A stretch of DNA of 63,571 bases, counting the filler, from Kipferlia bialata (Eukaryota), in the NCBI GenBank assembly GCA_003568945.1. It is 4 parts of 3 records of this genome, joined end to end, with 100 filler letters (N's around TTAATTAATTAA, not from the genome) between each part and the next. Parts side by side here need not be neighbours in the genome. Positions count along the whole stretch, not along the records: positions 13,700 to 40,203 come from BDIP01000186.1; 3 more parts are not named here. The stretch is one strand, 5' to 3'. The translations under genes and the position numbers were made by a program. Below the pieces are notes generated by a model that saw only the letters and a program-made list of their open reading frames with translations, was not told where the DNA came from and did not search any database. Below are positions 386 through 52,440 of the stretch, piece after piece (the first letter of the stretch is position 1; the number at the start of each line of letters is the position of its first letter).

Positions 386-886
386 CTAGTGTACAGTTCT
401 ATTCATGATTGTAGTACGCCTTGATCCAGTCTTTCTTGTATGGGGGTCGTATACCGTGTCTACCATCCGAAATCCAGCCTTTCTCATCATGCCTGCTGAT
501 GGGGCATTATCCTCGTGTCTCCATATGTACACGGAGCGGTACCCCTTGTCACGTGCTTCCTCAACACACAGTGACAGCAGCCTAGTGCCCAAGCCCCTAC
601 CCGTGCACTGCCTACTCACCACCACCTCTGCCGCATAGCACATGCCCTTAAGGTCATCATACTGTGCCAGACAGTCGGGACACGCCTCACCCCTGACAAG
701 CAGAGCAAACCCCAGCAGACCCTGCCCCTCATACACACACAGTGCATCTGCATGCCCTGTGGATAGTAAGGACAGCTCAGAGTCTACAGCATCTGGGGGT
801 AGGCTGTTGTACTCACTCTCCCCATGGTCAAGAATGAATGCACGCAGCAACGGAACATCCTCACAGCTGGCCTTGCAGAAGCGCAT
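386..886 (-). CDS. GNAT-family N-acetyltransferase, intronless
   Basis: ORF from MRFCKAS. Acetyl-CoA motif A (VVVSRQCTGRGLGTRLL) and motif B (HEDNAPSAGMMRKAGF). No introns. Confidence 0.9.
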   Translation of the reverse strand: MRFCKASCEDVPLLRAFILDHGESEYNSLPPDAVDSELSLLSTGHADALCVYEGQGLLGFALLVRGEACPDCLAQYDDLKGMCYAAEVVVSRQCTGRGLGTRLLSLCVEEARDKGYRSVYIWRHEDNAPSAGMMRKAGFRMVDTVYDPHTRKTGSRRTTIMNRTVH

Positions 887-1309
887 ATGTAGTGGGTAGA
901 AAGACAGGGTTGTGTACATCGACCCAAGCACTCTATTATACACGGTTGCCGGTATGCGTGTAGGCTACACGCTAGAATATTACATAGGAAATACGATTAC
1001 AGCAGAGAGACTACATCGACCACCATCGCAATTGAACCAACCCAGCCAAGAGGGGTATGTACCGGTCGCAACCACCAATTGTAATGGTGTAATGCTAGCC
1101 TGAGGTAACGACACAAAGTGTGACAAGGCGAAACGCGTGGAATCTGACACATGGTCTCAGTCATAAGTATAGCCAGCCAGTCAGCACACTATCATGACGG
1201 TTCAGACTACATACGTGTACAATTACACTGGGGCCCCAAGTCTATGCACCAGGTGTCTATGTGATGCTCAAGGGATACAGTGAATATCTAGAACTCACTG
1301 CGAGTCTCT

Positions 1310-8959: not shown

Positions 8960-10037
8960 TCACTCCTTCTGCCCCAAGATGGCGTTAGGTGGAATGATGC
9001 CCCATCTCATGTCTGGGTGTGGGTACACCAGGCCAGGGTCTAGATAGTGCAGCTGATAGTGCTCACCTGGCCTGCCCGACCAGACTGCTAAGGAGGGGAA
9101 GAAGACACCGTCCTCACACTCGAAAGTTGTACTGTCATACTGTGTGATCTCGCCAGATATGGTGTCTAATCCGTACCAGTCCCATTTGCCAGAGAAAGTA
9201 GTCGATAGAGTGACTATCAGGAGGAAGTGGCCAACGGCCATAGTCTGGCATCTGTATACATGCCTTGGTAGTCTAGCCTCCTCAACCCACCCAGTTCTCT
9301 CGGAAAACGAGACTATCCTACTGTCTCGAGTGAAAACATATGCACGGGAACCCAGACAACATGAAGGCGTACTAATATCGCTATCCACTGGGATCCTAAG
9401 TAACTTCCACTCCTCGTACCGTCTGTCCGGATCAAAGGTCCACATCTGCACACTATTCCCTGATGCACCTCTGAACCAAACTCGCATGAAACAGCGGTCC
9501 TCAAGTGCAAACACGTCCCGACGTATCAACTGATCCAAATCAAAGGGATGTAGCGTGTGTACTCGAGAGACTTCCATAGAGTCCAGCTCTAGCTTCAGAA
9601 GGACACGGTTACAATCGCACGCGTACAACACGCCCCCTACTGTAAATGTAGAACGTGGTGCCTTGCAGAATAGGGCTGTGTGGTGCTCTATGACGTCAGA
9701 TGCCCTCAGAGTCAGGGTGTGCATGTCTCCCGATACCACATCTAGGTAGGCCAGCGAGTTGGCACCAACCGTTGTGCCTTCGACTCGAGTAATTTCACAC
9801 TCTGGTACAACTTGAGAGGTTGTGACATGTGCGCAGAACAGAGGGTTGTGTGGCATGTAACGTCCAATATAGCGACTTAACTTGTTTCTGAGAAGGAACA
9901 GTGGTGTGTCTTGTATCTACTGCCACACACAATACGATATCACTCACGTGACGCCATCTTTCACCGAGTACGGTGACCCTCAGTCGTTTCAAAGCTTGGA
10001 TCCACTGCTGTAAAGTACAATTGGGATAGGTTGGCAT
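8960..10037 (-). CDS. Divergent kelch/beta-propeller-like protein (large exon 8960-9856, probable short 5' exon)
   Basis: 298-aa ORF with blade-like segments (TFTVGGVLYA, MWTFDPDRRYEEW, LGSRAYVF, WYGLDTISGE). GTGAGT donor at 9947 after a 30-codon ORF. The 5' structure is uncertain. Confidence 0.55.
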
Positions 10038-26100: not shown

Positions 26101-29100
26101 TAAGTGAAAGAGTGACAGATAGTGCATTGGCCATGGCAGAGACTATCCCTTGGGGGCTCAGTATGAGTACACTTATGCTATAATATAGTGATGACTTACT
26201 TGAGTTCATTCTCAAGTGGCGCAATCTTCAGGTATGCCCCGTGGTATGCTATGTTGGCAGAGACCCATCCAGACAAGGGGGCAGCGGCCTTAGAAACAGA
26301 GCGGATGCGGTCCTGGAGGTAAGCTGCCAGTCACTCTCAGAATCACAATAGTCGCGGGCACATGGCTTCTCGGGTTGAATACAAAAACAATTCTCAATTA
26401 TAGAGGTCCTATTGGTAGTATCGTACCTCATTGAAGGCCTCTGGGCTGTTCTGGATGATGCCCTTGACAGCATGAATGACCTAAGGGTTAGAGAATAGAG
26501 TGGATGATATATACTTACTGATACTATTGCAATTCTGCAGATAAATACTTGTCGGCCTTGGGTAAACATAGAAATGCCCATGACTCACCTTTGGATGCAC
26601 AGTCTTGATGTTGAGCTCCATCAGTCTCTTCTGAAAGCCAGACTTGGCCAGGAAGGCACGCATGCCTAGGGATCAGAAGGTGAAAGAGGAGACATATGGA
26701 ACATTTAGAACAGATGATATCGGTGACAGTAGATAGAGGACGAAACACAATATGGCATAGACATAACATCGAGAGACAGAGGTACACACCGGTCCAAGAG
26801 AGATCCTTCTGACCACAGAGCCTGAGAACGGCACCAAGAACAACCTGGACTGAGACGGCCGCTGAAATAGAAAGGTACAAACAGATATGAATTCACCATG
26901 TACTATGCTATATAAGCATACATCATACCTGCACAAGGTGAGGGGGAGAAGAGAATCCCCTCACTTCCTGAAGGGCACGAGGTGGGATCTGGGAGACTGC
27001 GAGCTTGGCCTGGAGGGTAAGGCTGAGACTACTATAAGAGACATGTAATAGTGTGGATATTGGTTGAATGTACCTTCTCCAGCATTGGCTTGACTTGGGA
27101 GTAGTCCCTGTCAGCCTCGGCACGTCTCGTTTCTAGGGTTAGACACTATATATTCCTAGAAACAAGGCTTGGTGCAACGAATGTATGACTATATATACAT
27201 ACACGATACGCACCAATGGCAACGGTGTCTGCGTCTAGTGTTGTCCTGAGTGCCTTGGCCTCGGCCTGCTTCACAGAGACATCCTAGGGTGAGTTCTACA
27301 CGATAACTGATCGTTCATAATACTACGCGATACCTGCATGGCCTGCTGGATGTTTGTGAGTGCCTCTGTGGCATCACGCTGTGCAGTGCTGAGCTTGCCT
27401 CTCTCCACAGAGAGTCCCTGGAGTTAGTATATATAAACATACTCCATAGAAAGATTTATTATTACAGATATCACAAAGACTCCGGAATCATCACGCTCAC
27501 TTCCGAAAGATCACAGTACAGGGATCATTACCAAGAGGAGCATATAAAACCCAATATATAGTACCTTTCTCATGTGGCTGATAGTAGACTCGCACTGCTT
27601 CAGCTGCCTGAGACCCTTTCCTGTGGTGAGTACACAAGTATACGAAGAGAATGGTATGGTTGGCTCTAGACTAACCTAGGGTGCTGCTTTCCGCTGCAAG
27701 ACTGTCCTTCTTAGACTCAACCAACTTGGTGGCAGCGCTATAGGCATACAGTACGGTCTAAGGGTCAGTCAACTCATAAAAGCCAGCTCCAATCTAAGAA
27801 TAGTTGGCAAGAGACGATATAGCGATGAGTACCTGTCCCTCCAGGAAAGGTGACTGTACGTCTGAGAGTCCACCATTTGCATGCTTATCCCTAAGGGGTA
27901 AGAGAGGGAACAGAAGTCGGAGAGCGAATAGCTCCCCTAAACAAGCAAATATCAACATTTCTGAATACTAACTGCTAATGTGTATCCATACTATTTGGGA
28001 TACCTGAGTGTCTGCACCATGTCTCCAAAGACTGTCTCATATATTATATATATATACTATATATATATACTATATATATGATACCTGAGTATCTGCACCA
28101 TGTCTCCAAAGACAGAAAAAAACTCACTAGCAATATGCTACAATATACATCCACACATAGTCCTATTATATACATACATATACATATATATAAATAAATG
28201 ATACCTGAGTGTCTGCACCATGTCTCCAAAGACAGCCAGTGTCTCAGCACTCGATGTAACAGCAGGAGTGGCCCTGGTAGATGGTGACATGACACTACTA
28301 GGCACAGGGGCAGCAGGGGTCAGGGCCTCAAGAACCTCACTGGATCCGGCACCCCTAAGTGTCAAACACAACTCAGCTCATAGTCTTGAATTGAGACATT
28401 GAATATATGAATATGTTATACATACCTACTCCACTCTGCGTCGCTAACTGGAATGGCAACCATAGAGAGATGCCTCTCGACAGCTGGGTAGCTAGCCAAC
28501 AGAGCACACTGGCGAGTATCCATCTCTATCGCGTAGCGGACAGTCTGGCCAAAGGTCTCAAAGAGGCGCTCCCTTGCCCTCTCCCTCTCTGCCTCTCCAC
28601 CTGCCCCACCCTCTCTCTCCACCATGCCCTTCAACAGTCTGCTGATCTCGTAGGGGGAGACCAGGCTGCTGATGTTGGAGGGGTTGTCGAGGAGGGATGA
28701 TAGGCACCCGAGCCAGGTGTCTGCGGCAGAGGAGAGAACGGCAGGGGAGAGGAGGATGACAGTCTCGCGGAGAGGGGAGTCATCCTCTCTCTCACTCTCA
28801 GAGGCCTCGGCTAGAGCATCGGAAATGGAGGAGAGGGCCTGTGGTGAGTACTATAGCAACATACTATACTGTCCTTATTTATGACTCACACTGTGTTATG
28901 CCATATACCTGATATCAAAAAAAGATGGATATATATAGTATTATAGAGAGTACCTGTGTGAGTGTGGATGCCACGGCTGTAGGCCCTGCTGGTGGCTGAA
29001 CAACAGTGCAACCACGGGCGGCATACAGCGAGGTCACGCAGTGCCTAAGGTGGGGGCCTGAGGCCACACCTGCGACGGCAAAGACCTACGCGTAAGATAG

Positions 29101-32100
29101 TCCAAAGACAGGTATAGTGTAGCATAATCAAAGGTGTACCTTGCTACCCTCCAGAGCCGTGTCACACCACGCTGCCTGGGAGAGGAATGGCTGTACTAGC
29201 GGTGTGTGGAGGGGTGAGTACAGAGTGTTGGCATGTCCCACGGCAGAGGCTAGAGTAGAGGCATAGACGCTCATGGGAATCACACAGAGTCTCCCTCCCT
29301 CAGGTGTAGTTGTGTCCTTGGTGTCTAAGGGAGTCTCGGAAGAGTCCTCTCTTCTCATGGTTGGACTTCCAAAGGGATCACTTAGCTCTCTACGCATGGA
29401 TCTGTCGTGGTCCCTGCCGCCTCTGCCCCTAAGGGCATCCAACCAGGACTGCTGTACAACACCTAGGGTAAGTATCTGACTGCTCGCTACACTCTAACAA
29501 TTTCACAGTATATACATGTTATGTATGTAGTATAGTATACCTCGTAGAACGTCACTGTCTGCCCCTCCTAGGGGTATCATGCCGTCTGAGCATGCATAGC
29601 CAGAGATATCAATATATATAACAATCTAACACTGAGAAACTTAGTAATGTAACATACCTAGTACAACGTTACTGTCTCCCAGGGGTATCATGGCGTCTGA
29701 GTATGCGTTGCCAGACGACTTGGCAAGGGCAGCCAGGTAGGGGGAGGAAAGGCCGTGCTTGGCAGTGACCTATCATAAGTACCATAAGTAAAGATCCAAC
29801 ATAAATACTATTGAACTATATGAAATACCCATAAGTGTATGTTTGAGTACTGGATGAACTCCGGAAGACATGGGAGAGAATAATGGACAAGATGACAAAT
29901 ATACGAATCCATACCTTGGCAAGAGCCTTGACAGTGAGGCCCCTGGCTGCCCCCAGCTGCATACTTGCACTAAGTACCCCTAGGCCAGAGTGTACAAAGG
30001 CATCTGGCACAGAGACAACCTTACTCGCACCCTTGCCCTGACTGACCTCTGGGGCAAAGAGAGAGAGTCTGTCAACCCATCTGGGGGTAAGAAATAGACA
30101 TAGTGTATCAATATTAGAGTCAAATATCACTCTCATAGTACCTAATGAGGGTGTAGACGTCAGGCACTGCAGAGTGCAGTAGGTGCACACTGACATCACC
30201 CCTCGAGGGGTCTCTAGCCAGCTGGCTCGTCACGTGATCAATCAACTTGCCAAGGGCCTGAATGGTTAGCATTGGTTCAACATGCAACTTACTCGATATG
30301 TGATAGATCGTGTACCTTAGTGAGTAGCTGGCATGTCTGCACCATGGCAGTAGCCAGCATTTGCAGGGTGCCCTTGAGGTCCTTGACCCCAGAGAACATG
30401 GGGTGCTTAGCCACACTACGCAGAAGACGGTGCCTGATTGTCAGGTATATGAATATTCACGATATTCCGCAACAGTAGGGACAAATACTATACTAACCTG
30501 GTAACGGCCACCATCTCGCTGCTGTTGAGTCTGGGCAGGGACACGGTAGCGCACAAGGAAGCGAGCCTCGATCTGATTGGCTGTCTCCCACCCTCATCAC
30601 CGCCTCTGACTGAGAGCACAAACACAACCCCGCTGACCCTGGCGACAGACACATCGCCACCCTCACCCTCAGCGACAACACCAACCTCGCCCTTCTCCAC
30701 CACGCTCCTAATCACACAGTGCAGGGGTGTGTGGCCGTAAGTGTCACGCCTAGGCAGATCCGCATCGCGTAGGTACACGACGAGTCTCTGGCCCTTGGGG
30801 GGGGAGAGAACCACCCTTCCATCGGGGGCACTGCCCTTAGAGAGAGAGTTGGTCAGCATGGTTACTAGTGTGGAAGCGTCCGTGTCCACGCAACACGTGT
30901 GCTCGACGTAGATGGTATCCTGCATGGATGACACTGTCTGTCTCACTAGAGTGGCCTTGCCACTGCCCCTGGGGCCACTAAGGACGGTACTCACACCTGC
31001 ATCCAGGAGCATCCTGAAGGTAAGAGATATACAACAAGAGAAGAAGACAACACCAGTCTTGTTGAAACAAGAACAAGAGTGGATGTCCAGAAATACCTCA
31101 GGGTAGGGACTGCCCCAGAGAGTGACGGAAGGGGACACGTATTAGGGGACAGAGCACAGGTCTGGAAGTGAGTAGACAAAAAGAGAATCAATAATACTCA
31201 TAATATGGTACTGAAGGGATTCATCACTGAAACTACGCGATGAGTACCTTGTCCTTTGGCTCTGGTCCGTTGTCTCCCATGGCGACAGGGAGGGTAGATC
31301 CTGGGGGTACCCAAAGCCTAGGGTTAGATTGAAGACCAAACAAGTATAATCTAATATGCAAGAAAGAAGTGTAACTGATAGGCTATATACCTTCCCCTTG
31401 CAAACACTGGCTGTCTGATCCTCCTAGTCATCTTGTCATGGAGAGGGGGGACAGTCACAACGGCAAGCCTGGCGTGAGCACGGTATCGTCAAGTCACATT
31501 CATAACTGTTACCAGAGCACCCAACCCTTCAGACTCTACCTTGATATAGTGGCTGGGGATGCATGCTGCAGAGAGTCAGTCTCAAACAGGAAGGAGACAG
31601 GGGCAGTGGTGAGGTGCTGCCTGACCATCAGAACACAATAACCCTGAAGAATAGAGAAATTGCAACTCCGTTGTAGTGTACGTTGTATATATCCTATACT
31701 TACTTCATGTAGGCAGAGACGTAGTCCTCTGTCAAATGAATCATATCTGATCACAAAACAAGTATATATATAGTAAACTGAAACATATACATATACTCAG
31801 CGTACTCACTTCATGTAAGCAGATACGTAGTCCTCTGTCTGTGGGAACCTAACCCTCTCTCCACTTGCAAGGGTGAGGAGATGGTTGTCATCAAGAGCAC
31901 TGTTGAGAGCCTGAATGTCAGGGTTACTTACACGATTAATTTGACAGGTACCAATATTCGGACTACGTACCTCAACCCACTCAGGGTCCACGTCTCCATC
32001 GCATACAATCCAGGTCCAGACTCCCTGGGGGTAAGGGAATGATCTACACAGAGTGTCTTGGGATACATATGGATGTGATAGAAATGTATATACTGTACAA

Positions 32101-35100
32101 GGACACACCTGTGCCTGTCCTGCTGCCACCCTTGACTCTCTGGTCAGGATACCATCGTGCCACTCTCCCTGACGTAAGTACAGGTTACAACCTCCTGCAG
32201 ACTCACAAATACCCACTACAGCGCGCCACCTTCCAATTTCAGAATAATTTGGGTGACTCGTATATACATACCTTGTCTGTGTATCCGAGGAGTGCCCGTC
32301 TGTCCACAGCCTTGGGACACACCTCAACAATCCTGACATTAGCACTAGAGAATAACGCGATACAGTTCTTACACGATACCTGATGACGAGGCCACAGATG
32401 GACTGCACAGCCTTGGCCAGTGCCTGCCTCACTCTAGTCTTACCACACCGGCCCTCACCCACCAGGGCAACACCTATCTTACTCGATAGAGATCTGTACA
32501 GGGAGAGACAGAGATCCGTCTGCTCGGGGGTTACTCCACCTAGGGTCAGGTTCTCAATCGCAAAACTGAAGAATTTTAACAAACCAAGCTGAACTATAAT
32601 ACTGATATGATGATAAGTAACCCATACCTAGTGATCCCATGACCTCCTCCACGGCGTGCCTCAGCTTGAGTTCCACACTTGGCAGAGGGGGTGCAACAAA
32701 GGCATTCTTGTCAAAGACGTCCCTGGAGTCAGAGTGGAAGAGATATTAACGGGGTCAATAACAACTGACAATTCATCCACAATACAACCACAATACGTCC
32801 ACAATATCAATGTTTGTATACCTTAAGACTCCCTCAAATACTGGAGCGTCAAGAGCGCTGATACGGGGATGGACGGCAGAACGGAAGGCCTACTCGTCAG
32901 CAAAGAGCGTTATCGTGTATACACAAATGTGACGTGTGTACTCACCTGCACCAGCACAGCCTGCTCACAGATTGTGACATCCTTAGAGTACTGCTCCTTG
33001 GAAGGCTTAGACTTGTAGCTCTTCTTGAGAGAGAGGACAGCGCCAGGGAGCATACCGGCAGCCTGAGAGTAAGAGAATCACATACTATATGTTTCGTGTA
33101 GATATGGTTAATCGTGTGAAAATACCTGCTTCAGCACTGTCTGTAGGCCTCTCATACCCCAGTCCACAAAGGAGGACTGGGTCAGGCTCCTGACAGTTAG
33201 AATATGGTCATATATATACCATCAAGCTCAGTAAGGATTGTTCAATTGCCAGAGGAGTCCTAATAATATATAGAATACTCTGATACCTTCCACTGATGCT
33301 GCACACAAGCATGGCCTTTGTCGACAGGTGGCTGGAGGTCTTGAAGCCTGGATGAGAAAGACGAAATACATAGTATCATATATAGAAACAGTGTTAATCA
33401 GTCGACTGGCCACCAAGAGTACCAGATACACAGAAAGAGTGCTAATCGTCGACAGACCACTCACCATCTGCAAGTAGAGCAACATGGGCAATTGTGTCGA
33501 TATCAGCTCTGGCCATGTGGACAGGTCTAAGGAGCTGCTTGACATTGTCTGGCAGCTGGGAACGGCCCCTTACAATTAGATCATGAGTATTCTCACAAAG
33601 ACTTGAAGAGAAACTTATAGTTACAAATAATGAATACTACACCATGTATATATACTGTACTATATATACTATGTGAAGTATGGTACCTGTACTCTCTGGA
33701 CGCAGGGTTGAGTGTGACAAACACAGCTGCACCCCGTGTGACATGCACAGCTCTGCCACCAAGGGACAGAGTGGACTGCGAGTTAGAATAGAACAGGAAC
33801 AGACACAATGCCTGAGACATAGTAACATCACTGACAGGCAAGATCACATAACTAACCTCTCCCACTCCTCTGATGCTGGACTGAATGGCCTTGATGTTCA
33901 AATATATTATATATATATATAAATATGAATATATAGACATACTATATATATAGACATACTATATATATATATATATGAATATATAGACATACTTCTTAGA
34001 GTATAAGAGCGAAAAATGTCATTCAATGTAGAATACGCACCTCTCCCCCTCCTCTGATGCTGGACTGGATGGCCTTGATGTCATTGGCCAAGAGGTGCAG
34101 AGTGCGCTCAGACAGTCTGTTGAATTCATCGAAACAGCCAAAGGCACCAAGGAGAACAACTCCTAGAGAGTAAGAAAGCAATAAGTACCCAAACAGCAGA
34201 ACTAATACACTAAATGGGAGGAAGTGATGATAATGGTACCTGTAAGCACTCTTCTGATGGCCCCCACATCTGCCTCTGCATCACAGTTGAAGGTGATGAC
34301 TGGCCTTCCAAGCACACCAGCTAGGTACTTGACAGTCTCGGTCTTGCCTGGTGGTGAGGGTTCGACTCCCACTCAAATACACTTCTAGATAGATGAGAGG
34401 CTAAGAGCCTTACCTGATCCAGCGGGACCGTACGGGTTTCCTCCATAGCCAAGACCCATACCGACCATACAGGCATCAATGCACTTATCAGTCAGAGCAG
34501 AGTGCACGATTCGTGCCCCAAGTCCCTATCGGTGAGAAAATAAATACACGATATATGAGGGTGTAACTACGCCGTGTCTGGTACCTGGTACTCCCAGAAG
34601 TATGGGTATGACACACCCATACATACACATGCCACGTCCATGCCCCCTAGGGATAGGTCCCCAGAGGCATTGGGAGAGGCAACAGGGGCAGGGACAACCA
34701 GTCTGTACTTGATCTCCCTGGGGGTGAGGGGAGTAATCTATTGTCTATTCTACATCGTAGTAGTATTCTACGATACAGTACCTGAACCACTGGTATGCCC
34801 TCTCCCCAGGTGTGCTACACTCAATCAGTCTCCTGCACATTGACATGTGATGGACAAGGGTGGTGGTCAGGATACGGGTCTTGAGGTGGAATACCTCCCT
34901 GTCGCCCTCACATGGGAGGTTCTTCAGGGCAGCTAGGGACTGGAATGAGAGAACTTCGATGACTGAAAGAGTAGAGAATGCGACAAGTGAGATTGAAGAC
35001 AGTCTCCTATTCCATACCTTTGTTGTGGAAGTGAGTGCCCACTTCAGCCTGTGAGTGCACTCCTGAGGATGAGACTGATTCTAGGCACCAGAATAGAATA

Positions 35101-38100
35101 GTATGAACACTGTATGGCCGATTGAGAAGTTGAGTTGCCTAGAGAAAAGAGAAGAAACAAGAGAAATAGAGAGAACACACCTGGTGAGGATCTGGTCCTG
35201 TCTCCCCCCCATCTCCCACCAGTGCATCCTCTATATCGGCACAGAAGAGTACATTGGCAAGGAGACAGGCAATCTCTCCGGGCAGGGTGTTGGGATCCGT
35301 GGATGCGTTCCCGAGACCGGCCTTGGAGAGGAAGTATGTGCCATTGTCCCTGATGTCAATATACCGAACAATTGAAACAATACATTGTGGAAGTGACTAG
35401 TTGTGTATACGTACCCTCTTGTCACACTACCGGGTGGCAGTGGCAGGCAAGGGGGTAGCTTTGCCCCTGTCAGCAGAGAGTGGCGCAGCGAGGAGGATAT
35501 ACCCTGGGCAAGCTGAGGAAGCCACACCTAGTAGTTAGAATAGGAGTCCGATATGGTAGTAATATCATAAAGACTAGCGGTGCAATACCTCGCTTCTGGT
35601 GTTGGCTCTGCATGGGATCCGTCTCTGTAGTGGGATGGTCTCGCCATCAACGGAGGAGAAGCCTAGAGTCAGTAATTTGACTCATAACTACAAATCACAA
35701 ACTGAGACTAACAGAATAGTGTGTGAATAGGTGAGGAAGGTCATGTACCTACAATCTCCCTCTTTGTGGTCCCATCCACAGTGACTGCAGCCACAGCTCC
35801 AAAGAGCTTCCTGAGGTCAGAAAACAATACAATACTCACACAGCAACCAAAGAACACAAAGACAGTATTCTACAAACCTGAGGTGTGGGGTCACTGCCTC
35901 TGGATCAGCGGCACTGAGAATGGTAAGGAGATCCTGATGTGAGGGAAGCAGGAAACACATATATCGTGTAGAATCGTAAACCTACACGAACCTGATCTCC
36001 GACGAAGTAGAACCTCGGGAATGCCCTCCTCTTATCATCCAGGTACTCAGAGAGGGCCCTCTCTACACCCTTGAGAACAGACTCACACAGCTCCAGAGCC
36101 CCAGGTACATTCCTCTCCCCGTCTCTCTCTCCCTCACCGTCCGTATCTGCGTGTGCGTAGAGATCACTCAGCAGGATAGGGGGCACGAGGAGGAGACCAG
36201 TCGCAGGGTATGCGCCATGTCTGCTGTCGGGTGCCTCTCTCTCTCTCTCGAGGCCCTTCCTCTCTCCCCCGACCTCAATGTCTGACACTAGTGTGACTAA
36301 GGCAGTGCACACGACAGAGAGAGCACGGTAGAAGGGGGAGGTCTGGGCGGGTAGGGCGTTGTTAGCCATGACGGGCTCAAGGTAGGCAACCTTCCTCTGC
36401 ACCTATTGTGAGAACACGGTTGGTGACAAGAATGGGACAAGTGAATCATACCTTTGTGATACAGTGCAGCACACGTGATATGTCCCCAATAGTCTCCTCG
36501 TAGTGGGTGACCTCGTTCTTGGCAGTGGCGTAGTGAGGGGAGGTCTTTACAGACTGGAGCATCGCCTCTCTCTCAGCAAGACCTAGGGGTCAGAAGGGAC
36601 GGAGAAACATAGTAAATACATGTATCAAGGTTTCGAATTATAGAATATAGATAATATAGATAGATATAGATAGAATAGATACAATAATAGAATAATAATG
36701 TGAGCAAGTATGTATATACCTGATAGAACACGTGTGACTCCCCCCACAAAGGGCAAGCATGTCACTGTGTACTCAGGTGGGGTCTCATGACTGAAGATGT
36801 CCATGTCACGCAGGGCCTTGACTGGTGGTGAGTACTAGACACCTACACGATATATATCAGTTTCTACGCGATACCTGCGGGTCCCACTCTCTTCACAGAG
36901 GCCTCTGTGAGCTTAAATGGTGTGACGGTGAGGTTGCAGTGGATGTTGATGTATGCAGCAACGTCCTCCACAACCTTCCTGACCTCTCTCTCTCCTAGGG
37001 CCACCGAGACAATACTCCTGATGGCCTGGGGGTTAGGGACATAATATACACAAAATGATTACTTAGATTACATATGATATATAACTACCAACCTTGGTTC
37101 TTGCCGTCAGGTGTGGAATGTGTGACTGCGACACCTCGATAGACATACTCTTGCACTCAGCGGGTGAGTATGCAGCAGCAATGTCACCGACAGTCAGACG
37201 GGCAGGGGGGGAGGCAGGGCAAGGGATAGCGAGGGCATTGCATATCTGGACCCAGTGACTGGCAACTAGGGCGTCGCAACGAAGTAGTGTGAGGACAGGG
37301 GTCAGAGTGGAGACTAGCTCAAGATCAGCAGATACCCTGGATATCAGACAATAAAGCGAAGTAGAGCTAGCATAAATAGAATATAATAAGTGAATAAGGA
37401 ACAAACCGCAGAAATGGAAATGTATTGGGGAAGAGTAGAAAACTTACCTTGCGGAGAGGGTGCGACACAGTGTGGAGCAAGGTGAGTCTGCGAGGGTGTT
37501 GACCTCTCTCCTATCGAAGGAGTCCTGCTCCACTGGCTCCTTGCCCCACTCTGCCAGCATGTCATCTACAACATACAGACGGTGCCTAACGGTAAGATGC
37601 GAAAATATAGCAAAATAGAGGGGCGACAGAATCAGTATGACAACCAAGGAATACAAAGGATGTTGGTAAGAGTTGGAAATAATATACTATTTGAATATGA
37701 GAACAGGCCCAATAACAGAGAACTATTGAATATGTCATATACCTGATTGAGACCCAGTCCTGCTCGAGAATACCCTCTCTGATACCCTTGCTCACACTCT
37801 CATGCTTGGACAGGAGGGACAGAGTGTGTCTGGCGAGCTTGGCCTGATGATTAGTCATAAACACTTTTGTGATTATTGCTAACTATCTATATACACAAGA
37901 GTATACACAGGATTATGAGGCCGAAATAGTTAAATTTACCTGGGAAAGGATATCTGCGAATGTGGCTGCAGCCAGGCCAGTAACAGAGGAGAGGAGAGCA
38001 AACACCTCCTCCTCTGCACCTTTTTTAGTCTGAGGGGTCTTTGGAGAAGGTGGAGATCCACTGGCAGCAGAAGCGCTGCCCAGTAGAATGGCACGATTGG

Positions 38101-40153
38101 CACTGACTAGCTCAATGATCCTGACATCAGTAAATTAGAAAGACCAGCTTCATAGTTCTAGTACTCAAGAGAGAAACACAATGTGTATGAAAGCATACCT
38201 ATCTGCCACTGCCACCAGCATCGACAGGGACTCCTGGGCATCTGCCCAGCCTGGTGTCAATCGCGTAACAACCCACCCAGCTACTCATCGTGTAGAAAGC
38301 CACATACCTGGTACAGTCACCACTGTCAGCGCCTTCTCCCCGTCCTTCCTCTTGTACACCCAGCCGAGTGGATGCCCAGCCACTGCAGCACAGAGGGAGG
38401 CAGACACACTCTCCGTGACTTGTGATACGGCGTCCATGCCCTCTCTCAATAGGCCAGCGGGGTATCTGGTGGGTCAGAGGGTGTGGGTTCGATTCCAGCT
38501 ATTGACACTTTACCTTGGGTCTGCCCCTAGCTTCTGCTTGATAGACTCCAGGATGACCTTGACACCATCGTGGACTGGTGGTAAGAAAGTGTGAGAGAGA
38601 GAAGGAGGAAGAGAGAGAGGTACTCAAAAATATGGGCAAGAGAGACACCAGGTAGTGGGGGATAACTGCTACACATACCCTTCCCACTAACGTCTCTCGC
38701 GAGGTTGTCGAGTGAAGTGATGGCTCTACGGCAGGTGCCGCACCTGAGAGTGAGATACTACACTAGAGTGGTTATTATATCAGTCTTATGTACAGTTCTC
38801 ATACCTCTCCTTCAGTAGCTGCACCATGGTCTCCTGTCCAGAATGAGACAGAGAAGTCACAGTCTCCTCCATCAGATTGAGAATCTGAAGGTGAGATCAC
38901 TGTGGATACACTAATAGCCAATCAGATTGTTCAATGTTTTACATTCACATCATCGATACTGTGTGTATCGGTGATACCTCAAGAGATGCCAGCAGCGAGA
39001 GAGGTGTGTCCTCTCCCTCGTCCTCTCCCTTCAGCTCGGCCTCGGCAAGGGCAACCGCACCTGGGTTATTAATGTATAATATGTATTTAGATATAGAGTA
39101 TTGACATATATGCATATCATGGTACTCGGCCTCGGCAAGGGCAACCGCACCTGGGTTATTAATGTATAATAAGTATTTAGATATAGAGTATTGACATATA
39201 TGCATATCATGGTACTCGGCCTCAGCAAGGGCAACGGCACCTGGGTTACATACAGCATGTAAAATGGTCAATAATAATAACTCGATTATTGCTGTACTAT
39301 AGATATATATATATACATACCTGCCATGTCATTCAGAGCTGCACTGTCCGTCAGGGGTGCCTGCAGTCTAGTGACAAGGGCATTGCACCTCAGAGAGACA
39401 TCGCCAGAGAGAGAGGCAATGCTACCCTTGGAGTAAGTAAGTTATAATGGAAAGAAGATATATAATAATTAATATGATAATAGCATTACGAATAGAGACA
39501 TCGCCAGAGAGGGACGCAATGCTACCCTGGGGGTGAGTATAATAATAGAGGATGAGTCTAAGTATATTTGAGAGATTCAGTGTAAGTATCTATAGAATAG
39601 AGAATAGTACAAGAATACCTTGAGAGAGCGGCATATGAGCCCCGAGAGCAGTCTAGGCTGTCTGTCGAGTTGGTTGCATGCCATCTTGACATCCAGGGTC
39701 AGGTGGCAGGGGGAGGGGATGGACAGGGTGGTGGCTGGGTGAGTATCAAGATGAAAGCGTACAAAGGAATACAAATATCGGTACTATTAACGACAATTCA
39801 AATATAAATGGTTAATGTGACATTCAGAGTGAGGTGGCAGGGGGACGGGATGGACAGGGTAGTAGCTGGGTAAGGAGAGGGGAGACCGACATAATATATA
39901 ATACTATTCATATATATATATATATGTAGTTAGTGTGACATCAAGGGTCAGGTGGCAGGGGGAGGGGATGGACAGGGTAGTGGCTTGGTGTGAATAATAG
40001 GAAAGCATCCAGGAACACCGTTATATAGATGTGACTTAGTGTATACAAATAGATAGCAAGAGTTAGGTGGCAGGGGGAGGGGATGGACAGGGTGGTGGCT
40101 GGGTAAGAGAATAAAGAATACACACAGAAGAGCATCACTACTGAGAGTCATTC

Positions 40154-40200
<47 letters not shown>
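17171..40200 (-). CDS. DYNC2H1: Cytoplasmic dynein-2 heavy chain (DHC1b, retrograde IFT motor), partial, many introns
   Basis: Linker QRKVAYLEPV..YLDDKRRAFPRFYFVGD (35905-36402). AAA1 GNPYGPAGS|GKTETVK..FNCD..GAFGCFDEFNRL (34100-34500). AAA2 GEGRCGKT, WIVCDGDVDPEWVE|ALNSALDDNHLLTLASGERVRF. AAA3 GPRGSGKA. Stalk/MTBD LAVSQIPPRALQEVR. AAA5 LLSVLNEADGDIIDNE. C-terminal LQGAAW and PLYVGTDRE. GNPYGPAG and the 'ICDGD.DPEW' form match dynein-2. Confidence 0.9.
18255..18500 (-). repeat. Three ~100-nt tandem units, each an exon 3' end (EAWTGGMPSAPVSVQ) plus GT donor
   Basis: Direct repeats; visible as a triple peptide in ORF 18142-18558. Confidence 0.95.
19699..20420 (-). repeat. Exon-echo array: five copies of an exon 3' half plus donor, and three copies of its acceptor plus 5' half
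   Basis: PFAMCECLFNCASAT(S/A)Q|GT at ~19699, 19800, 19921, 20018, 20133. AG|EN.Q.LPPCVAS at ~20190, 20292, 20380. Confidence 0.95.
21209..23930 (-). repeat. Dense cluster of intronic duplicated exon termini within the dynein gene
   Basis: Pairs or triplets at 21209-21345, 21623-21772, 21842-22045, 22088-22265, 22330-22492, 22547-22790 and 23535-23930. Confidence 0.9.
39031..40110 (-). repeat. Exon-echo arrays (acceptor plus exon start)
   Basis: GAVALAEAE x3 (39031-39248), acceptor duplicate (39395-39535), ATTLSIPSPCHLTL x4 (39690-40110). Confidence 0.95.
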
Positions 40201-40303: not shown

Positions 40304-41201
40304 CATGGAACACCCCAGAGACTGGGTCGTACATCAGTACCTCATCTATCCCAGCATATCCGTCGTGAGGTGTGTACTTATACGCATAGTGTCTATCAGG
40401 TATCATCAGTATGAACCTCCCCACAGAGACCATATACTCCGGAAAAAATCCATGGGGACTTTTCACATCACAGTGAGCCAACCTGATCATCAACACTTCT
40501 AGGAAACTATGTCAATATTAGGTGACACTGTGGTGAAATGAACTTGTATGGTTCAGCAGGTGAGTATAGACAGACGTGTGGGAGGGTTTACATAGCGTTA
40601 CCATACCCGTGGTCCTCAGAGTAACTCCACCAACTTGGTGGCACCAAGTATCACACCTGCCACGGAAGTACACCACACCTTCATGTATGACACTGGCTCT
40701 GTACATGTGCAGCCGCAGTGCAGCCATGTCTAATGGATGTCTCCTCCAAACATGTGTCTCAGGGTCTAGGATCTCTGTGGTACCAACGTAGCTACTGGGA
40801 GCCCTTGACCCACCGAGCAGCAAGAGAGAGCCATTGACACAAAGACACATGGGTGTGATCCGAGGAATAGGTGTGTGCACAGTATCCTGCTCACTCTCAC
40901 CCATATACTCCTCACCCTCAATCTCCATCCACCGAAGCGTCGCAAGGTCAAGCTTGTACACAAGCGTCCTAACTGGAAGAATACGAGCGTCAAGGTCGTT
41001 GGTACCGTAACGGGTGACCCAGTTTACTACATACACAGACCCAAGCGAGTCAGAGGTTATCGTTATGTTGTACTTGGAAAAGGTGCTTTGCCGCCCACTT
41101 TTCGGTGTCGGTGGGGCAGCGATCAGTTCCCTTGAGAGGACACCCTCTTCGTCAACCCTTAGGATGTAGTACCTCATATGAGATTGACAGTAAGCATACA
41201 C
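40304..41201 (-). CDS. Divergent kelch-repeat-like protein, 3'-truncated by contig end
   Basis: VYKLDLATLRWMEI, CVNGSLLLLGG..TEILDPETHVW, VIHEGVVYFRG, SVGRFILMI, VLMYDPVSGVF. The two ORFs are probably joined by an intron near 40500-40600. A further 5' exon is likely. Confidence 0.65.
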
Positions 41202-41767
41202 TGACTGTTGCTAAATAGGCATATGTGCTATTATACAGTCCAGAGTAAGCGAATGACTTGTTGTTCGTTAGACAGATATGTTACCTGAACTCCCTGTTTA
41301 AATCAAGTACTCTCATCAGTGCACTGTTCCTCCCTAGCGACACAACTTGCTTTATGTGCCAATACTGACTATCAGATGGGAACCCTAACACGCATAATGA
41401 ATGCCAACAGGATGGTAAAGGGCACTATTCCTAATGATCTATGTTAGAGGGACTAGTAACAGTATTGTCCATGTGTCGTACCTTTAGGTCTTTGAGTACT
41501 GGCCTGTAGGAAGTGTACCACTCCTGGAATGACATGTTTACTGGGTGTCTGGTTGTGATATTCCTGTCTATATAGGGTAGCTGATACAGAACTTCCTCTG
41601 TTAGTAGAGTAGCGTGTGTATAGAGTCGGCTCTATACTACGTGACACCATGTTTCCACAGGAGGGCTTCACCTGTCCATGTCCAATATGTGCATCGCAAA
41701 TTCACCAGTAGATACATGTCTACAGTAAGTGGCTACGACACTTTCACGGTGAATTCTTCACCGAACC

Positions 41768-46205: not shown

Positions 46206-47347
46206 TCAAAGTATTCGCCACCAATCCTCTGTGGTCATAGATATGATGTATTCGGGTCCCAGAACACTCTCATCCACATCCACTACCAGCGTGTCACTAC
46301 ACCCAACGACCAAGAGGGTGGTGGGGTTGAGCATGACGCAGCTAGCTTTGCTGTCAGCGTAATGAACTACAACGAGTGGAAGGGACCTCAGCACTACAAA
46401 GTCGAGTGAAATGGGATCCAGGATAGCCATTCTAGCTTCTCTCTCTCCTTGAATGGATTGGTCGACACATAGCATGTGACGCCCAAAAAGGCACCCGCCC
46501 CCTAGCCATCTCTCACTTTCTCCCCAGAGAGTGTGGAATGTGAAGGGGAGAGGCTCTGCCTTCCACCCACTAGTTGGGTGGAATGTGAGGTGGTGCCTAT
46601 CAGAAGAGTTGTATTCATGGTGAACAGTCCCGAGGGTGTAACCGAATGCATTGAATCCAAACAATGGGTGAGGGAGTCGACCATGCTGTGTCCACTGACG
46701 TGTCTCCAGGTTCCACTCCCAGGTGTCGTATCGATGAGCACCAACTGGACCGAAGTCATCAGTTCCGCCAACCACAAAGAGAGAGTCCCCAATTGCAAAT
46801 AGATAGGAGACGAGCTGGTGATATGGGCAACAGTCTGATGTGTGTGGAATGGTCTCCCACTCTTGTGTCTCGAGAGAGTAGACAGCCAGACACCAGACAG
46901 GGACTTCGATATCTTGGGCTTCCCAGAAGCGAAACCCGCCATAGGCTACCACATAGTTACCAACCCTTGTCAGCTGGATGGCATGGATATCAGCAGTGTT
47001 CTCTGGACCCCCTATGCTCTCCTCTAGTACTGTACGGTCTGGCTGGAGAGTCATAATAAGCCACGTGCGGCGGTGACGCACAGTGTATGTGACCATGGCT
47101 CTAGTGTGGTCCAGTGCTACCGCCTGAATTGAGTGAACATATAGTATATCAGCTGCAGTCAGCTGTCTATCACCTACTCTGACCTAGGTGCACTCCCAAT
47201 ACGTATATTGAAGGACCCTATACACCGTATGTTACCAGCGGTTCAGTTCATTACCTGAGTGTATAGACGACCATGCCTGAGAACATCAGCGTCAGTCTCA
47301 GATGGAAGGGGGGGCAGGGCAGTGGTTACACGACTGAACCACTCCAT
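46206..47347 (-). CDS. Kelch-repeat-like protein, tandem copy A (exons 47347-47255, 47123-46206)
   Basis: MEWFSRVTTALPP..YTQ|AVALDHTRAMVTY in frame across a GTAATG..TTCAG intron. Kelch-like VGNYVVAYGG..VYSLETQEWE and IGDSLFVVGG..DTWEWNLETRQW. Confidence 0.8.
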
Positions 47348-48316: not shown

Positions 48317-49443
48317 TTAGCTGTATGGTGTGGTCATTGATGTGATGTATTGGGGTACCATCACCCTCTCATCCACATCCACTACTAGTGTATCGACACA
48401 CCCAACTACAAGGAGGGTGGTGGGGTTGAGCATGACCAGGCTAGCTATGTTGTCAATGTATCGACCTACAACGAGTGGAAGGTACTTAAGCACTTCAAGG
48501 TCGAGTGAAATTGGATCCAGCATAGCCACTCTAGCCTCCCTCTGTCCTGGAATGGAAGCGTCAATACACAGCATATGGCGCCCAAAACAGCACCCGCCCC
48601 CTAACTCTTTAAGTCCTTCTCCACAAATGGTGTGGAATGTGAAGGTAAGAGGCTCTACCTTCCAGCCAGTAGCTACGCTGAACGTGAAGTGGAGATTCTT
48701 GTCAGGGGCGTATGCATGATGAACACTTCCAGTGGTGTAACCGTATGCAGTGAATGCCAATAAATGGTGAGGAAGTGGACCATGCTTAGTCCACTGACGT
48801 GTCTCTAGGTTCCACTCCCATGTGTCGTAACGATACCCCCCTTGACCAAGTACATCACATCCGCCAACCACAAAGAGAGAGTCCCCAATTGCAAACAGAT
48901 AGGATTGGAACTGGTGGTATGGGCAACAGTCTGGTGTGTATTGAATGGTCTCCCACTCTTGTGTCTCGAGAGAGTAGACAGCCAGACACCAGACCGAGGC
49001 TTCGGTACGTTGGGCCACCCAATGACGGAACCTCCCATAGGCTACCACATAATTACCAACCCTTCTCAGCTGGATGTCAAGAACATCAGCAGTATTCTCT
49101 GGACCCTCTATCCACTCCTCTATCACTGTACGGTCTGGCTGGAGAGTCATAATACTCCATGTGCGGCGGTCACGCACAGAGTATGTGACCATGGCTCTGA
49201 TGTGGTCCAGTGCCACTGCCTAAAGTGAGTGGACATATACTATATCAGCTGCAGTTAGCTGTCTATCACCGACTCCGACCTAGGAGCACTCCCATATTGT
49301 AGTGGCAAGGGCGCTATTCGCCGTATGTTACCAGCGTCTCATTTCATTACCTGAGTGAATTGACGACCATGTCTGAGAACATCATCGTCAGTCTCACTTG
49401 TGATGGGGGGCAGAGCCGTGGTCACACGTGTGAACCACTCCAT
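48317..49443 (-). CDS. Kelch-repeat-like protein, tandem copy B (exons 49443-49351, 49219-48317)
   Basis: Paralog of 46206-47347 with the same intron position, homologous intron and homologous upstream region (~2.1-kb duplication unit). Confidence 0.8.
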
Positions 49444-50217: not shown

Positions 50218-52440
50218 TCACTTGGGGATGCCAAGGGTGGGGGCTCTCCTCTTCCTCTCCTGGGGTTATATAGGGTATATGCATCTATATATATATATAT
50301 ATGTAGATGCACATGTAGATACGTATATATATATATGTATGTATGTATGTATATATGAGTATAATGAGATGTATATATGCAAAATCACCTTCCTCTTCCT
50401 CTCCTGGGGCATGGAATGAGATGTATGTAAATATACAATAATCTATATACATAAAGAATATAAATTTAGTACCATATACATATAGGACACACTAAAGTAC
50501 ACCATAGAGTACACTATCGTACCTTCTCCTTCCTCTGGTTTCTCTTGAAGGCCTCGAAGCATGCGTTGTACCTCTGACTATGCATAGGGCCCTAGGGGTT
50601 AGGAATATATATATATAAATATATCGAAAGAGAGAGAAGTATACATATATCCACAAACATGTATATATACATGTATATGGAGAGAGGGTGAGAATCTGGC
50701 TGTGCCTGCATAGGGCCTTGGGGGTTAGGATCATATATACAAAGACACGCACTAATATAAAATTGTGTATAGAATATTGTATTTGGTACAATTATCTCCA
50801 TGGTGCAGGTGCGTCAACTATCTTGAATACTGATATGTATTTCTGATGAATCTTATCGTACTGAATGGTGTATCGACAGTATACAGAATATAGGTACCTT
50901 GAGGGGACTGCATGCTTTGGGGCTGTCATCTCTGTTGTGGAACACAGTGCCTGGGGGTGGGGGTGTATAAATAAATATATATATATATAGTTATATAGTA
51001 GTACATACATGAGTAGAATAGAATCATATTGTGTTATACTCACGGGTTTCTCTGCTATGGAACACATGTCATGGATAAAGGGACAAGTGCCACACAATAC
51101 ATAGTGTCCCATAGAGCCATTTCAAACATTCATACCTTCCGCCACCGAGCCACATACACGGAGTGTGTACCCATACATATGAATAGTATAGTGTAGTTCC
51201 ATACCTCCTGCCACAGACCCATATCTACTGAGTATACATATATGTGTGTGTGGAACTTGATACAAATATGTATGGTGTATATTGTACAGTATAGCACCAT
51301 ACCTCCTGCCACCGACCCACATCCAAACAGGTCGTAGTGGCACACGCGCTTGGCAACTAAGGTTAGAAGAATGTTAGAGGAGTGTTAGAGTGGCAGGGGA
51401 GGGGGGAGAGTATGGAAGCTAATACACTTGTTCACTGCATGGACAAAAGAGGATTAGGGTGGAGTACTTGGAGAGAGAGATATATATATATACCCTACCT
51501 GTGTTCCTGCCAGCTGCCGTGGCCGGGTACTGTCTCAGCTGGTGGTCCTGAGGTGGGAATAGTTGTATCTCCTATATAGGACATATAGTGAGTGTTCATG
51601 ACAAGAGAATATATGTCTGGACAGTTCATTGGTGGGAACAAGAGAGAGAGAGAGGGAGAGAGAAGTAGTACCTCACTGCGTGTCTTTGCCAGAATGTCAG
51701 ATGGCATATATATATATACTGGGTCTATATATACACATATGTATATATTACCTCGCTGCGTGTCTTTGCCAGAATGTCATGGCATATATATATACTGGGT
51801 ATATATTCATACATACACATGTATATAATACCTCGCTGCGTGTCTTTGCCATTATGTCCGAGGCAGTCACTATGTGCCCCCCATCACTCTCTGTCTCTCT
51901 CCCCTTCTCCCCCTCCCTCTCCTCCTCAGTGGTCTCTCCCTCAGTCTCTCTCTCCCTCTGAGAGTGTGTGTTTCTCTCTCTCCCCCTCTCCCTACCACCG
52001 CACATACCTCTGTTCAGCACTGCCACCTCGTGGTAGATGTCAGAGTCAGACATGCCCTGGGGGGTGAGACGAAATGGCGTAATAGATGTAGGTATTGGGG
52101 AGGGGGGGAGGAAGAGAGAGAGAAAGAGAGAGACACCACACGGGTGTCAAGAAGATGGGGCGGGAGGGATGAGACACGAGAGAGAACGTAGATTGACATA
52201 TCACCCAGTGAGGGACACATCAAGTGGTCAATATGAAGAGAGAGAGGGAGAGCACTCACGTTGAGCTCTGTCTCTGTGTGGAAGAATGACATGGGTGAGA
52301 GGGGGGCATCGACAGTCTCTCTCTCTCTCTCTCTCTCCCTGGGGGAGTCTCCTGCTGTGCGATAGCCTGAGGTCAGTACACATATGTAGAACATGAAAAG
52401 ATAAAGTGGCACCTCATACAATACAATATACCAATCCAGT
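50218..52440 (-). CDS. Multi-exon gene 3' part; C-terminal Cys/His motif resembling a Luc7-type zinc finger
   Basis: Phase-consistent splicing gives ..DIMAKTRSE|DHQLRQYPATAAGRNT|VAKRVCHYDLFGCGSVAG|GTVFHNRDDSPKACSPLK|GPMHSQRYNACFEAFKRNQRKEK|ERKRRAPTLGIPK-TGA. Confidence 0.55.

What the first reader, a model, noticed from the sequence alone, without database searches (positions are those of the whole stretch)
39690..40110. Four acceptor+exon-start copies whose internal differences are all synonymous
The functional start is (G)CC ACC ACC CTG TCC ATC CCC TCC CCC TGC CAC CTG ACC CTG. The upstream echoes read CT ACT..CCG..CTC ACT CTG (39824-39865), CC ACT..CTG ACC CTT (39941-39983) and ..CTA ACT CTT (40056-40098). 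All 10 differences are silent (ATTLSIPSPCHLTL). Spacers are unrelated to each other, and two echoes keep an intact CTTACCCAG acceptor that must be skipped.
Basis: seen in the sequence. Interest (0 to 1): 0.8.

Follow-up and report, generated by a model that had tools for sequence, protein, structure and literature searches.

The report
Exon-edge echoes in a protist dynein
In an intron-rich single-celled eukaryote, one intron in five of a dynein motor gene carries extra copies of the neighbouring exon's edge and splice signal, an oddity known from lancelets ("mirages"); here many copies differ from the real exon mostly by silent changes yet sit on unrelated intron DNA, likely because they were taken from other working alleles by unequal recombination.

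Summary
Three intronic copies of acceptor plus exon start precede a real exon (39734-39619, minus strand) of a dynein heavy chain, in an organism likely Kipferlia bialata or close. DNA contigs bridge every junction, so the copies lie in cis. The reading frame is right. The 10 silent differences are only 7 distinct changes, and a missense (GAT>AAT) sits at 39824. The 25-30% null is too lenient: against a dead copy compared with a constrained exon, this array gives p 0.01-0.02 before selection. It is one of 21 arrays (34 echoes, 18 of 91 introns; acceptor and donor side alike). These are "mirage"-type exon-boundary duplications, known from amphioxus and already noted by this scan in several invertebrates. 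Two things differ. It is a protist with about 83-nt introns. And echoes on unrelated intron flanks show a silent excess (31 of 44, 19.6 expected, p 0.0003; 41 of 69, p 0.009 at a looser cut), while those on related flanks do not (17 of 36, 17.3 expected). Best reading (0.5): unequal exchange between homologues demotes working exon edges of other alleles to intronic echoes. No second allele was seen.

The parts
39619..39734 (-). Real 116-nt exon (xTTLSIPSPCHLTLDVKMACNQ...), acceptor ATACTCACCCAG ending at 39735, donor GTATTC
   Evidence: Only open frame; part of stop-free model; RNA-contig depth 23.7 in bin 39521-39743 against 22.9 expected for this exon alone
39818..39865 (-). Echo 3: 48 nt of exon start behind acceptor CTTACCCAG; 5 silent changes, 1 missense (D>N at 39824)
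   Evidence: bridged on both sides by DNA record 5 of X1
39936..39983 (-). Echo 2: 48 nt behind acceptor TTCACACCAAG; 2 silent changes; same distal break point as echo 3
   Evidence: records 5 and 7 of X1
40056..40098 (-). Echo 1: about 43 nt behind acceptor CTTACCCAG; 3 silent changes
   Evidence: record 7 of X1
39735..39817 (-). Spacer between echo 3 and the real exon (83 nt), ending in the working acceptor
   Evidence: identity to the other spacers 0.49-0.59
39866..39935 (-). Spacer between echoes 2 and 3 (70 nt, TA run)
39984..40055 (-). Spacer between echoes 1 and 2 (about 72 nt)
39494..39526 (-). Acceptor echo in the next intron (2 silent changes)
39125..39240 (-). Two acceptor echoes in the following intron; one has 2 silent changes on an unrelated flank, the other is identical to the exon with a 97%-identical flank (recent same-chromosome duplication)
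33857..33897 (-). Donor-side echo (exon end + GT) skipped by the RNA contig
   Evidence: joint 33775-34041 in X2
19702..20412 (-). Densest arrays: 2 acceptor echoes before and 4 donor echoes after one 87-nt exon
16669..39734 (-). Divergent dynein heavy chain gene (91 exons modelled to 17172, two more terminal exons likely; 5' part off the contig) carrying 34 detected echoes in 18 of 91 introns
   Evidence: Pfam DHC_N2 E=1e-10 and AAA_7 E=4e-15

Best explanation
The array is a set of intronic duplicates of an exon edge with its splice site (mirage type), lying in cis in a dynein heavy chain gene, and the copies were likely gathered by unequal exchange between homologous chromosomes whose introns differ, so that each echo would be a once-working acceptor and exon start from another allele. 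Shown: the copies, their order in cis, the frame, a shared break point within each multi-copy array, and skipping of one donor-side echo in RNA. Inferred steps: (1) a founding partial duplication across an exon-intron boundary is tolerated only when the extra copy falls inside the intron; (2) the real exon edge of one homologue mispairs with an echo on the other, and the crossover leaves a new echo whose splice site, adjacent intron and splice-proximal codons come from a functional allele while its far end keeps the old break point; (3) alleles differ mainly at silent sites and in freely evolving introns, which gives silent differences on unrelated flanks; (4) the spliceosome uses the outermost sites, probably by pairing across the complete exon, and wrong products would be frameshifted and degraded. 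The echoes themselves would have no function.
For: All internal junctions of the focus array are bridged by DNA records with 31 or more letters on each side, at record depths 388-469 against 473 for the flanking 10.9-kb contig, with no other letters listed. 9 of 9 multi-copy arrays share the distal break point within 4 nt, apart from echo 1 here, which ends 5-8 nt earlier. Echoes whose intron flank is unrelated to the real intron show a silent excess over a dead-copy null: 31 of 44 distinct changes (19.6 expected, p=0.0003) at identity <=0.55, 41 of 69 (30.8, p=0.009) at <=0.60, 49 of 86 (38.9, p=0.017) at <=0.66; echoes with related flanks fit the null (27 of 61, 17 of 36, 9 of 19). Across 33 ungapped echoes flank identity falls as silent divergence rises (rho -0.38, p=0.03) but missense divergence does not follow (rho 0.02), so flank divergence is not a decay clock. 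Only 2 of 33 echo splice flanks equal the real one, yet their scores are near real sites (acceptor median 6.5 vs 9.1 real vs -0.7 random AG; donor 4.9 vs 5.7 vs 3.0). Silent changes cluster in the splice-proximal half (43 vs 20, p=0.016), missense do not (22 vs 18). The three shared changes in the focus array support three incompatible trees (simulated p 0.006-0.02 without exchange). No echo of the focus array makes a good stop-free in-frame cassette. K. bialata is described as probably diploid (PMC5874029, passage) and metamonads lack NHEJ and rely on homologous recombination (PMC8516963, passages).
Against: No second allele was seen: one search lists no differing letters in 6.7 kb, so divergent intron alleles are assumed, not shown. 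Gene-wide the excess over the dead-copy null is marginal: 55 of 100 distinct changes (45.8 expected, p=0.038), and 48 of 92 (42.2, p=0.13) without the focus array. The flank split was made after seeing the data, contrasts at p=0.06 (Fisher), and weakens without the focus array (p=0.003, 0.03, 0.07). Echoes within an array are not independent. Several echoes are plainly decayed (29604-29541: 0 silent, 8 missense; 20412 and 20324: 2 to 5 and 2 to 4). TA/CT-rich introns may scramble faster than exon-like DNA, which would mimic unrelated flanks. Retention of AG/GT in 33 of 34 echoes is what 4-5% divergence alone would give. The RNA joint at the focus intron was not seen. One gene, one sample.
Confidence: 0.5

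Rival explanations
1. Ordinary dead mirages: each array arose and grew by slippage or sister-chromatid exchange on one chromosome; the silent bias comes from silent drift of the real exon, chance, and picking the most extreme array; flanks look unrelated because microsatellite-rich introns turn over fast.
For: Gene-wide excess over this null is only p=0.038, and 0.13 without the focus array; echoes with related flanks fit it exactly; one echo is an exact copy with a 97% flank (39150); focus array p 0.19-0.39 after correction.
Against: Echoes on unrelated flanks have pS 0.24 but pN 0.039, a ratio of 6 where at most 2 is expected; missense divergence does not rise as flanks diverge; the 10 intron bases next to the AG/GT differ at 4.0 positions on average while the sites still score well; incompatible shared changes.
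Confidence: 0.28
2. Reserve exon edges under second-order selection: arrays contract often enough that an echo's acceptor and codons become the working ones, so in a large population missense and splice-breaking changes in echoes are purged although echoes are never translated in place.
For: Echoes 2 and 3 share a break point, so descend from one echo, yet differ from each other by 5 silent and 1 missense change while their spacers are 58% alike; no stop codon in 33 ungapped echoes; changes private to one echo are 20 silent to 20 missense against 25-30% expected.
Against: Predicts fewer missense near the splice site and evenly spread silent changes; the opposite was seen. Decayed echoes persist. 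No copy-number variation could be observed. It overlaps with the best explanation, since one unequal crossover yields both products.
Confidence: 0.15
3. The echoes are used: as minor alternative acceptors or donors, as nested splicing steps, or as decoys that tune mRNA dose through nonsense decay.
For: Splice motifs are near real strength; in 3 of 3 introns with both kinds the donor echoes come before the acceptor echoes, forming a possible inner intron; 6 of 18 acceptor echoes have a donor scoring 4.7 or more within 3 nt of their end.
Against: Units of 115-131 nt in the focus array shift the frame or meet stops; the one RNA joint over an echo skips it; use as a splice decoy does not explain silent bias in codons.
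Confidence: 0.05
4. Assembly artefact: haplotypes stacked in tandem.
For: Short-read style contigs; the array ends at a contig break beside a CT repeat; run X1 may be the source of this DNA, so it is not an independent sample.
Against: Echo-to-spacer junctions, which no working allele would contain, are inside single DNA records at full depth; copies differ up to their ends and share old break points.
Confidence: 0.02

Closest known systems
Amphioxus 'mirages' (Adh3, globins BflGb6 and BflGb9, troponin C, PGBD5). Seen: passages of PMC3087553 and PMC3902484; the original Adh3 paper (Canestro 2002) was not held and is known only through those citations
   Same: Tandem copies spanning an exon-intron boundary, on either the 5' or the 3' side, many keeping AG/GT, apparently ignored by splicing; unit size in range; unequal crossing-over suggested; amphioxus is highly heterozygous.
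   Different: Here a metamonad protist with introns of median 83 nt; 18 of 91 introns of one gene; only 1-4 echoes per array; units are not minisatellite-like (focus spacers at background identity, not found by Tandem Repeats Finder; BflGb6 units are 81-100% alike with concerted evolution); a silent-site excess, which PMC3087553 does not mention ('synonymous' and 'silent' occur 0 times in its main text). That paper calls the generating mechanism unclear.
Internal tandem repeats at human exon-intron boundaries (PMC2812944, passages) and intron gain by tandem duplication (PMC4974935, search listing only)
   Same: Duplication across or near a splice site that can reshape gene structure.
   Different: Those cases create new introns or lengthen proteins; here the duplicate stays inside an existing intron and the protein is unchanged.
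Tandem mutually exclusive exons such as Dscam (recalled, no call)
   Same: Series of related coding segments with their own splice sites and silent-biased differences.
   Different: Those are whole exons with both splice sites; these are half-exons with one site and would break the frame if used.

Membership tests
Mirage repeats (as described in PMC3087553) | Head-to-tail copies that span an exon-intron boundary of their own gene | tested here: met
   34 of 34 echoes reach the splice site
Mirage repeats (as described in PMC3087553) | Both 5' and 3' boundaries can be duplicated | tested here: met
   16 donor-side and 18 acceptor-side echoes
Mirage repeats (as described in PMC3087553) | Many copies keep AG/GT signals | tested here: met
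   32 of 33 ungapped echoes plus the gapped one
Mirage repeats (as described in PMC3087553) | Normal splicing is undisturbed | tested here: inconclusive
   One joint over a donor echo skips it and the real focus exon is covered; the joint at the focus intron was not seen; contigs drop minor forms
Mirage repeats (as described in PMC3087553) | Minisatellite-like units, alike over the whole unit (81-100% in BflGb6), concerted evolution | tested here: not met
   Focus spacers 0.49-0.59 alike, background 0.53; no tandem-repeat call there; met only by some other arrays (39035-39248, 18247-18501)
Mirage repeats (as described in PMC3087553) | Length instability between haplotypes or cells | not testable with these tools
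   Only contigs of one sample were available
Mutually exclusive or cassette exon array (features recalled) | Each copy is a complete exon with both splice sites that keeps the frame | tested here: not met
   Frame-keeping donors after the focus echoes are weak or lie behind a stop
Dynein heavy chain (host gene) | DHC_N2 linker and AAA motor domains in order | tested here: met
   PF08393 E=1.1e-10 and PF12775 E=4.4e-15 on single-exon frames; GPAGSGKT P-loop in the model

The most novel reading that the evidence does not exclude
The introns of this protist are an archive of its population's alleles: working exon edges are continually swapped between the coding position and intronic echo positions by unequal recombination, so untranslated DNA keeps the protein code, one genome records silent polymorphism and intron alleles of many haplotypes, and a short-intron spliceosome bypasses up to three acceptors or four donors by exon definition in a fifth of its introns.
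Probability: 0.25. Interest if true: 0.8.

Novelty: new variant of a known kind. Interest (0 to 1): 0.5.

Why it matters
The origin of mirages is stated to be unclear (PMC3087553). An organism with tens of them per gene, and with a signature that separates same-chromosome copies (related flank, neutral decay) from apparent allele captures (unrelated flank, silent excess), makes the mechanism testable genome-wide from existing data. It is also a natural test of splice-site choice: a lineage with short introns and a reduced spliceosome (87 of 174 proteins in K. bialata, PMC6679479, passage) would be expected to take the nearest site, yet must take the outermost. Practical point: an ab initio model read many of the echoes as mini-exons (27 spurious exons had to be removed, most of them echoes), so intron counts and proteins predicted for such genomes may be inflated.

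Tried and rejected
Run search listed no holder on record as RNA; X2 was a guess but shows GT-AG joints when laid. X2 has no cover in bins 39744-40160 and 39075-39297, where five echoes lie; no listed contig joins across them, so this is not counted as evidence. The splice joint at the focus intron remains unseen. No whole genome is held, so no genome-wide count. Homologue search with one dynein exon found nothing (0 of 2427 candidates; weak). No earlier scan note on this genome or sequence. The prediction that missense changes crowd the far end of echoes was not met (median position 0.37 vs 0.29, p=0.11). Spacers are not systematically whole introns: 6 of 18 acceptor echoes have a good donor at the junction and 1 of 16 donor echoes a fair acceptor. 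Retention of AG/GT was considered as evidence of selection and dropped. Echoes in the other contigs (1723-1910, 4644-4725, 5681-5805, 6121-6440, 50581-51860, 52857-53260) were read by eye only and left out of all counts; they show both silent and missense changes. The scan threshold (score 14) missed at least three short or diverged echoes (near 25690, 22570, 21332), also left out; the one at 21332 has 5 silent and 1 missense change in 27 nt by eye. Literature: nine searches listed no paper on such echoes in Kipferlia or any protist, or on silent bias in mirages; this rests on listings and abstracts, most subscription journals are not held, and the supplements of PMC3087553 (mirage alignments) were not opened and may bear on the silent-bias claim.

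Full report
Setting. The window is five contigs joined by linkers, one with a further 855-base gap. The finding lies at the end of contig 13700-40203, in the first, incomplete intron of a minus-strand gene. A spliced model trained on nine RNA joints and curated by removing 27 spurious mini-exons gives 91 exons, 11,154 nt, no stop. Single-exon frames match Pfam DHC_N2 and AAA_7: a divergent dynein heavy chain. A Kelch protein elsewhere in the window has one homologue among 893 candidates, from Kipferlia bialata at 34% identity; with the intron density this makes K. bialata or a close fornicate likely (inferred).

The observation. The four copies are there. The real exon is 39734-39619; its other two frames contain stops. 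Against it echo 1 has 3 silent changes, echo 2 has 2, echo 3 has 5 plus GAT>AAT at 39824. Three changes are shared by two echoes, so there are 7 distinct silent changes and 1 missense. All three echoes keep an AG. Spacers are as unlike each other as unrelated introns (0.49-0.59 against a median of 0.53), but echoes 2 and 3 end at the same exon base and share the next 10 or so bases.

Is it real DNA? Run X1 (contigs; it may be the source sample) has records 39194-39724, 39701-39973 and 39949-40094 at depths 469, 437 and 388, against 473 for the adjoining 10.9-kb contig, and a 35-mer shared by copies at 850. Each echo-spacer junction has at least 31 letters on both sides in one record, and no differing letters are listed. 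Stacked haplotypes are therefore unlikely.

Which copy is used? Run X2 holds one 12,768-nt contig with GT-AG joints; 9 of its joints were shown and 19 rows of the table were cut. Its record positions keep a constant offset to the model at 9 of 16 anchors (the other 7 are 1-nt overhangs outside model exons), and binned depth matches the echo-free model in 25 of 30 bins; the other 5 have extra cover from unrelated contigs. The bin with the real exon shows 23.7 against 22.9 expected. One listed joint, 33775-34041, crosses a donor-side echo and skips it. The joint at the focus intron was not seen. Using an echo acceptor there would shift the frame or meet a stop.

It is gene-wide. A local-alignment scan (threshold 14; null maximum 12 in 2952 trials) finds 34 echoes in 18 of 91 introns, 18 before an exon (acceptor plus start) and 16 after one (end plus donor), in 21 arrays. 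Echoes are 19-64 nt, spacers 41-143 nt, echo-free introns have a median of 83 nt. All 9 multi-copy arrays share their far break point within 4 nt, echo 1 here excepted. Similar repeats occur in three other contigs of the window (read by eye, not counted).

How strong is the silent bias? Over the gene, 55 of 100 distinct changes are silent against 30.4 expected if all were neutral (0 of 200,000 simulations reached it). That is the wrong null: a dead echo compared with a constrained exon collects neutral changes on one branch and silent ones on the other, giving 45.8 expected, p=0.038; without the focus array 48 of 92, p=0.13. The focus array alone gives p 0.010-0.021, or 0.19-0.39 after allowing for 18 introns.

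The mixture has structure. I compared 35 intron bases beside each echo's splice site with the same bases at the real site. Echoes with related flanks fit the dead-copy null (9 of 19, 17 of 36, 27 of 61 at three cut-offs). Echoes with unrelated flanks exceed it (49 of 86, 41 of 69, 31 of 44; p 0.017, 0.009, 0.0003; without the focus array 0.07, 0.03, 0.003). In the 18 ungapped echoes at background flank identity pS is 0.24 and pN 0.039. Flank identity tracks silent but not missense divergence (rho -0.38 and 0.02, n=33). Echo splice flanks differ from the real ones in 31 of 33 cases yet score close to real sites. Silent changes are denser in the half next to the splice site (43 to 20, p=0.016). 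The three shared changes in the focus array each support a different tree (p 0.006-0.02 in simulations without exchange). The split was chosen after seeing the data and copies are not independent, so this is suggestive, not proof.

Mechanism. These patterns are what unequal exchange between homologues would leave (inferred). After one founding duplication across an exon edge, the real edge on one chromosome can pair with an echo on the other. The longer product gains an echo whose intron, splice site and first codons come from a working allele and whose far end keeps the old junction. If alleles differ mostly at silent sites and in their introns, the echo looks selected without ever being translated in place. 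Same-chromosome duplications also occur (39150-39125: identical echo, 97% flank). K. bialata is described as probably diploid (PMC5874029, passage), and metamonads lack NHEJ and lean on homologous recombination (PMC8516963, passages). The needed divergent alleles were not observed. In every array the model needs the outermost sites, which points to recognition across the complete exon or to decay of wrong products (inferred). I give this 0.5; plain dead copies 0.28; second-order selection on echoes as reserve exon edges 0.15; functional use 0.05; artefact 0.02.

What is known. A scan note on a sea urchin gave the name and papers: 'mirages', tandem duplications of exon-intron boundaries in amphioxus that keep splice signals and do not disturb splicing, mechanism unclear (PMC3087553 and PMC3902484, passages). 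This scan has noted them in urchins, annelids and molluscs (unchecked notes). The present case works like a mirage and meets three of six features; it fails the minisatellite-like unit identity, so I file it as a variant, not a strict member. Nine literature searches listed nothing on such structures in a protist or on silent bias in them; the original 2002 paper and the supplements were not seen.

Verdict. Real, partly overstated, a new variant of a known kind. The value lies less in this array than in the density of echoes and the two-class signature, which makes the origin of mirages and splice-site choice in a short-intron protist directly testable. Interest 0.5.

Noticed in passing
window 1723-1910, 4644-4725, 5681-5805, 6121-6440, 50581-50740, 51140-51325, 51669-51860, 52857-53260: Exon-edge echoes in genes on three other contigs, so the trait is likely genome-wide; both silent and missense changes by eye.
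   Followed up: partly
window 22762-22381, 22215-21875, 20575-20223: Three introns hold donor echoes followed by acceptor echoes, i.e. a possible inner GT-AG intron nested in the outer one.
   Followed up: partly
window 29604-29541: Donor echo with an in-frame 6-nt insertion and 8 missense, 0 silent changes: the clearest counter-example to silent bias.
   Followed up: yes
window 39240-39125 and 18737-18620: Acceptor echoes that end in AG followed by TA, so the spacer starts with a good GTA donor; the echo is flanked by both sites like a 22-25-nt micro-exon.
   Followed up: partly
window 16704-14918, minus strand: A second gene follows the dynein 3' end with little or no gap; its translation ends in a Cys/His-rich motif recalled as RMND5/GID2-like RING (not tested).
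   Followed up: no
window 40518-41210, 46206-47183, 48317-49219, 8960-9916: Long uninterrupted frames in an otherwise intron-dense genome; the first two match Kelch families, the third resembles the second by eye, the fourth had no Pfam match.
   Followed up: partly
window 386-964: Uninterrupted GNAT acetyltransferase frame (PF00583, E=5e-12); origin not examined.
   Followed up: no
window 28954-29085: The expected fourth P-loop region of the dynein shows no GxxGxGK motif in the model, while three others do.
   Followed up: no
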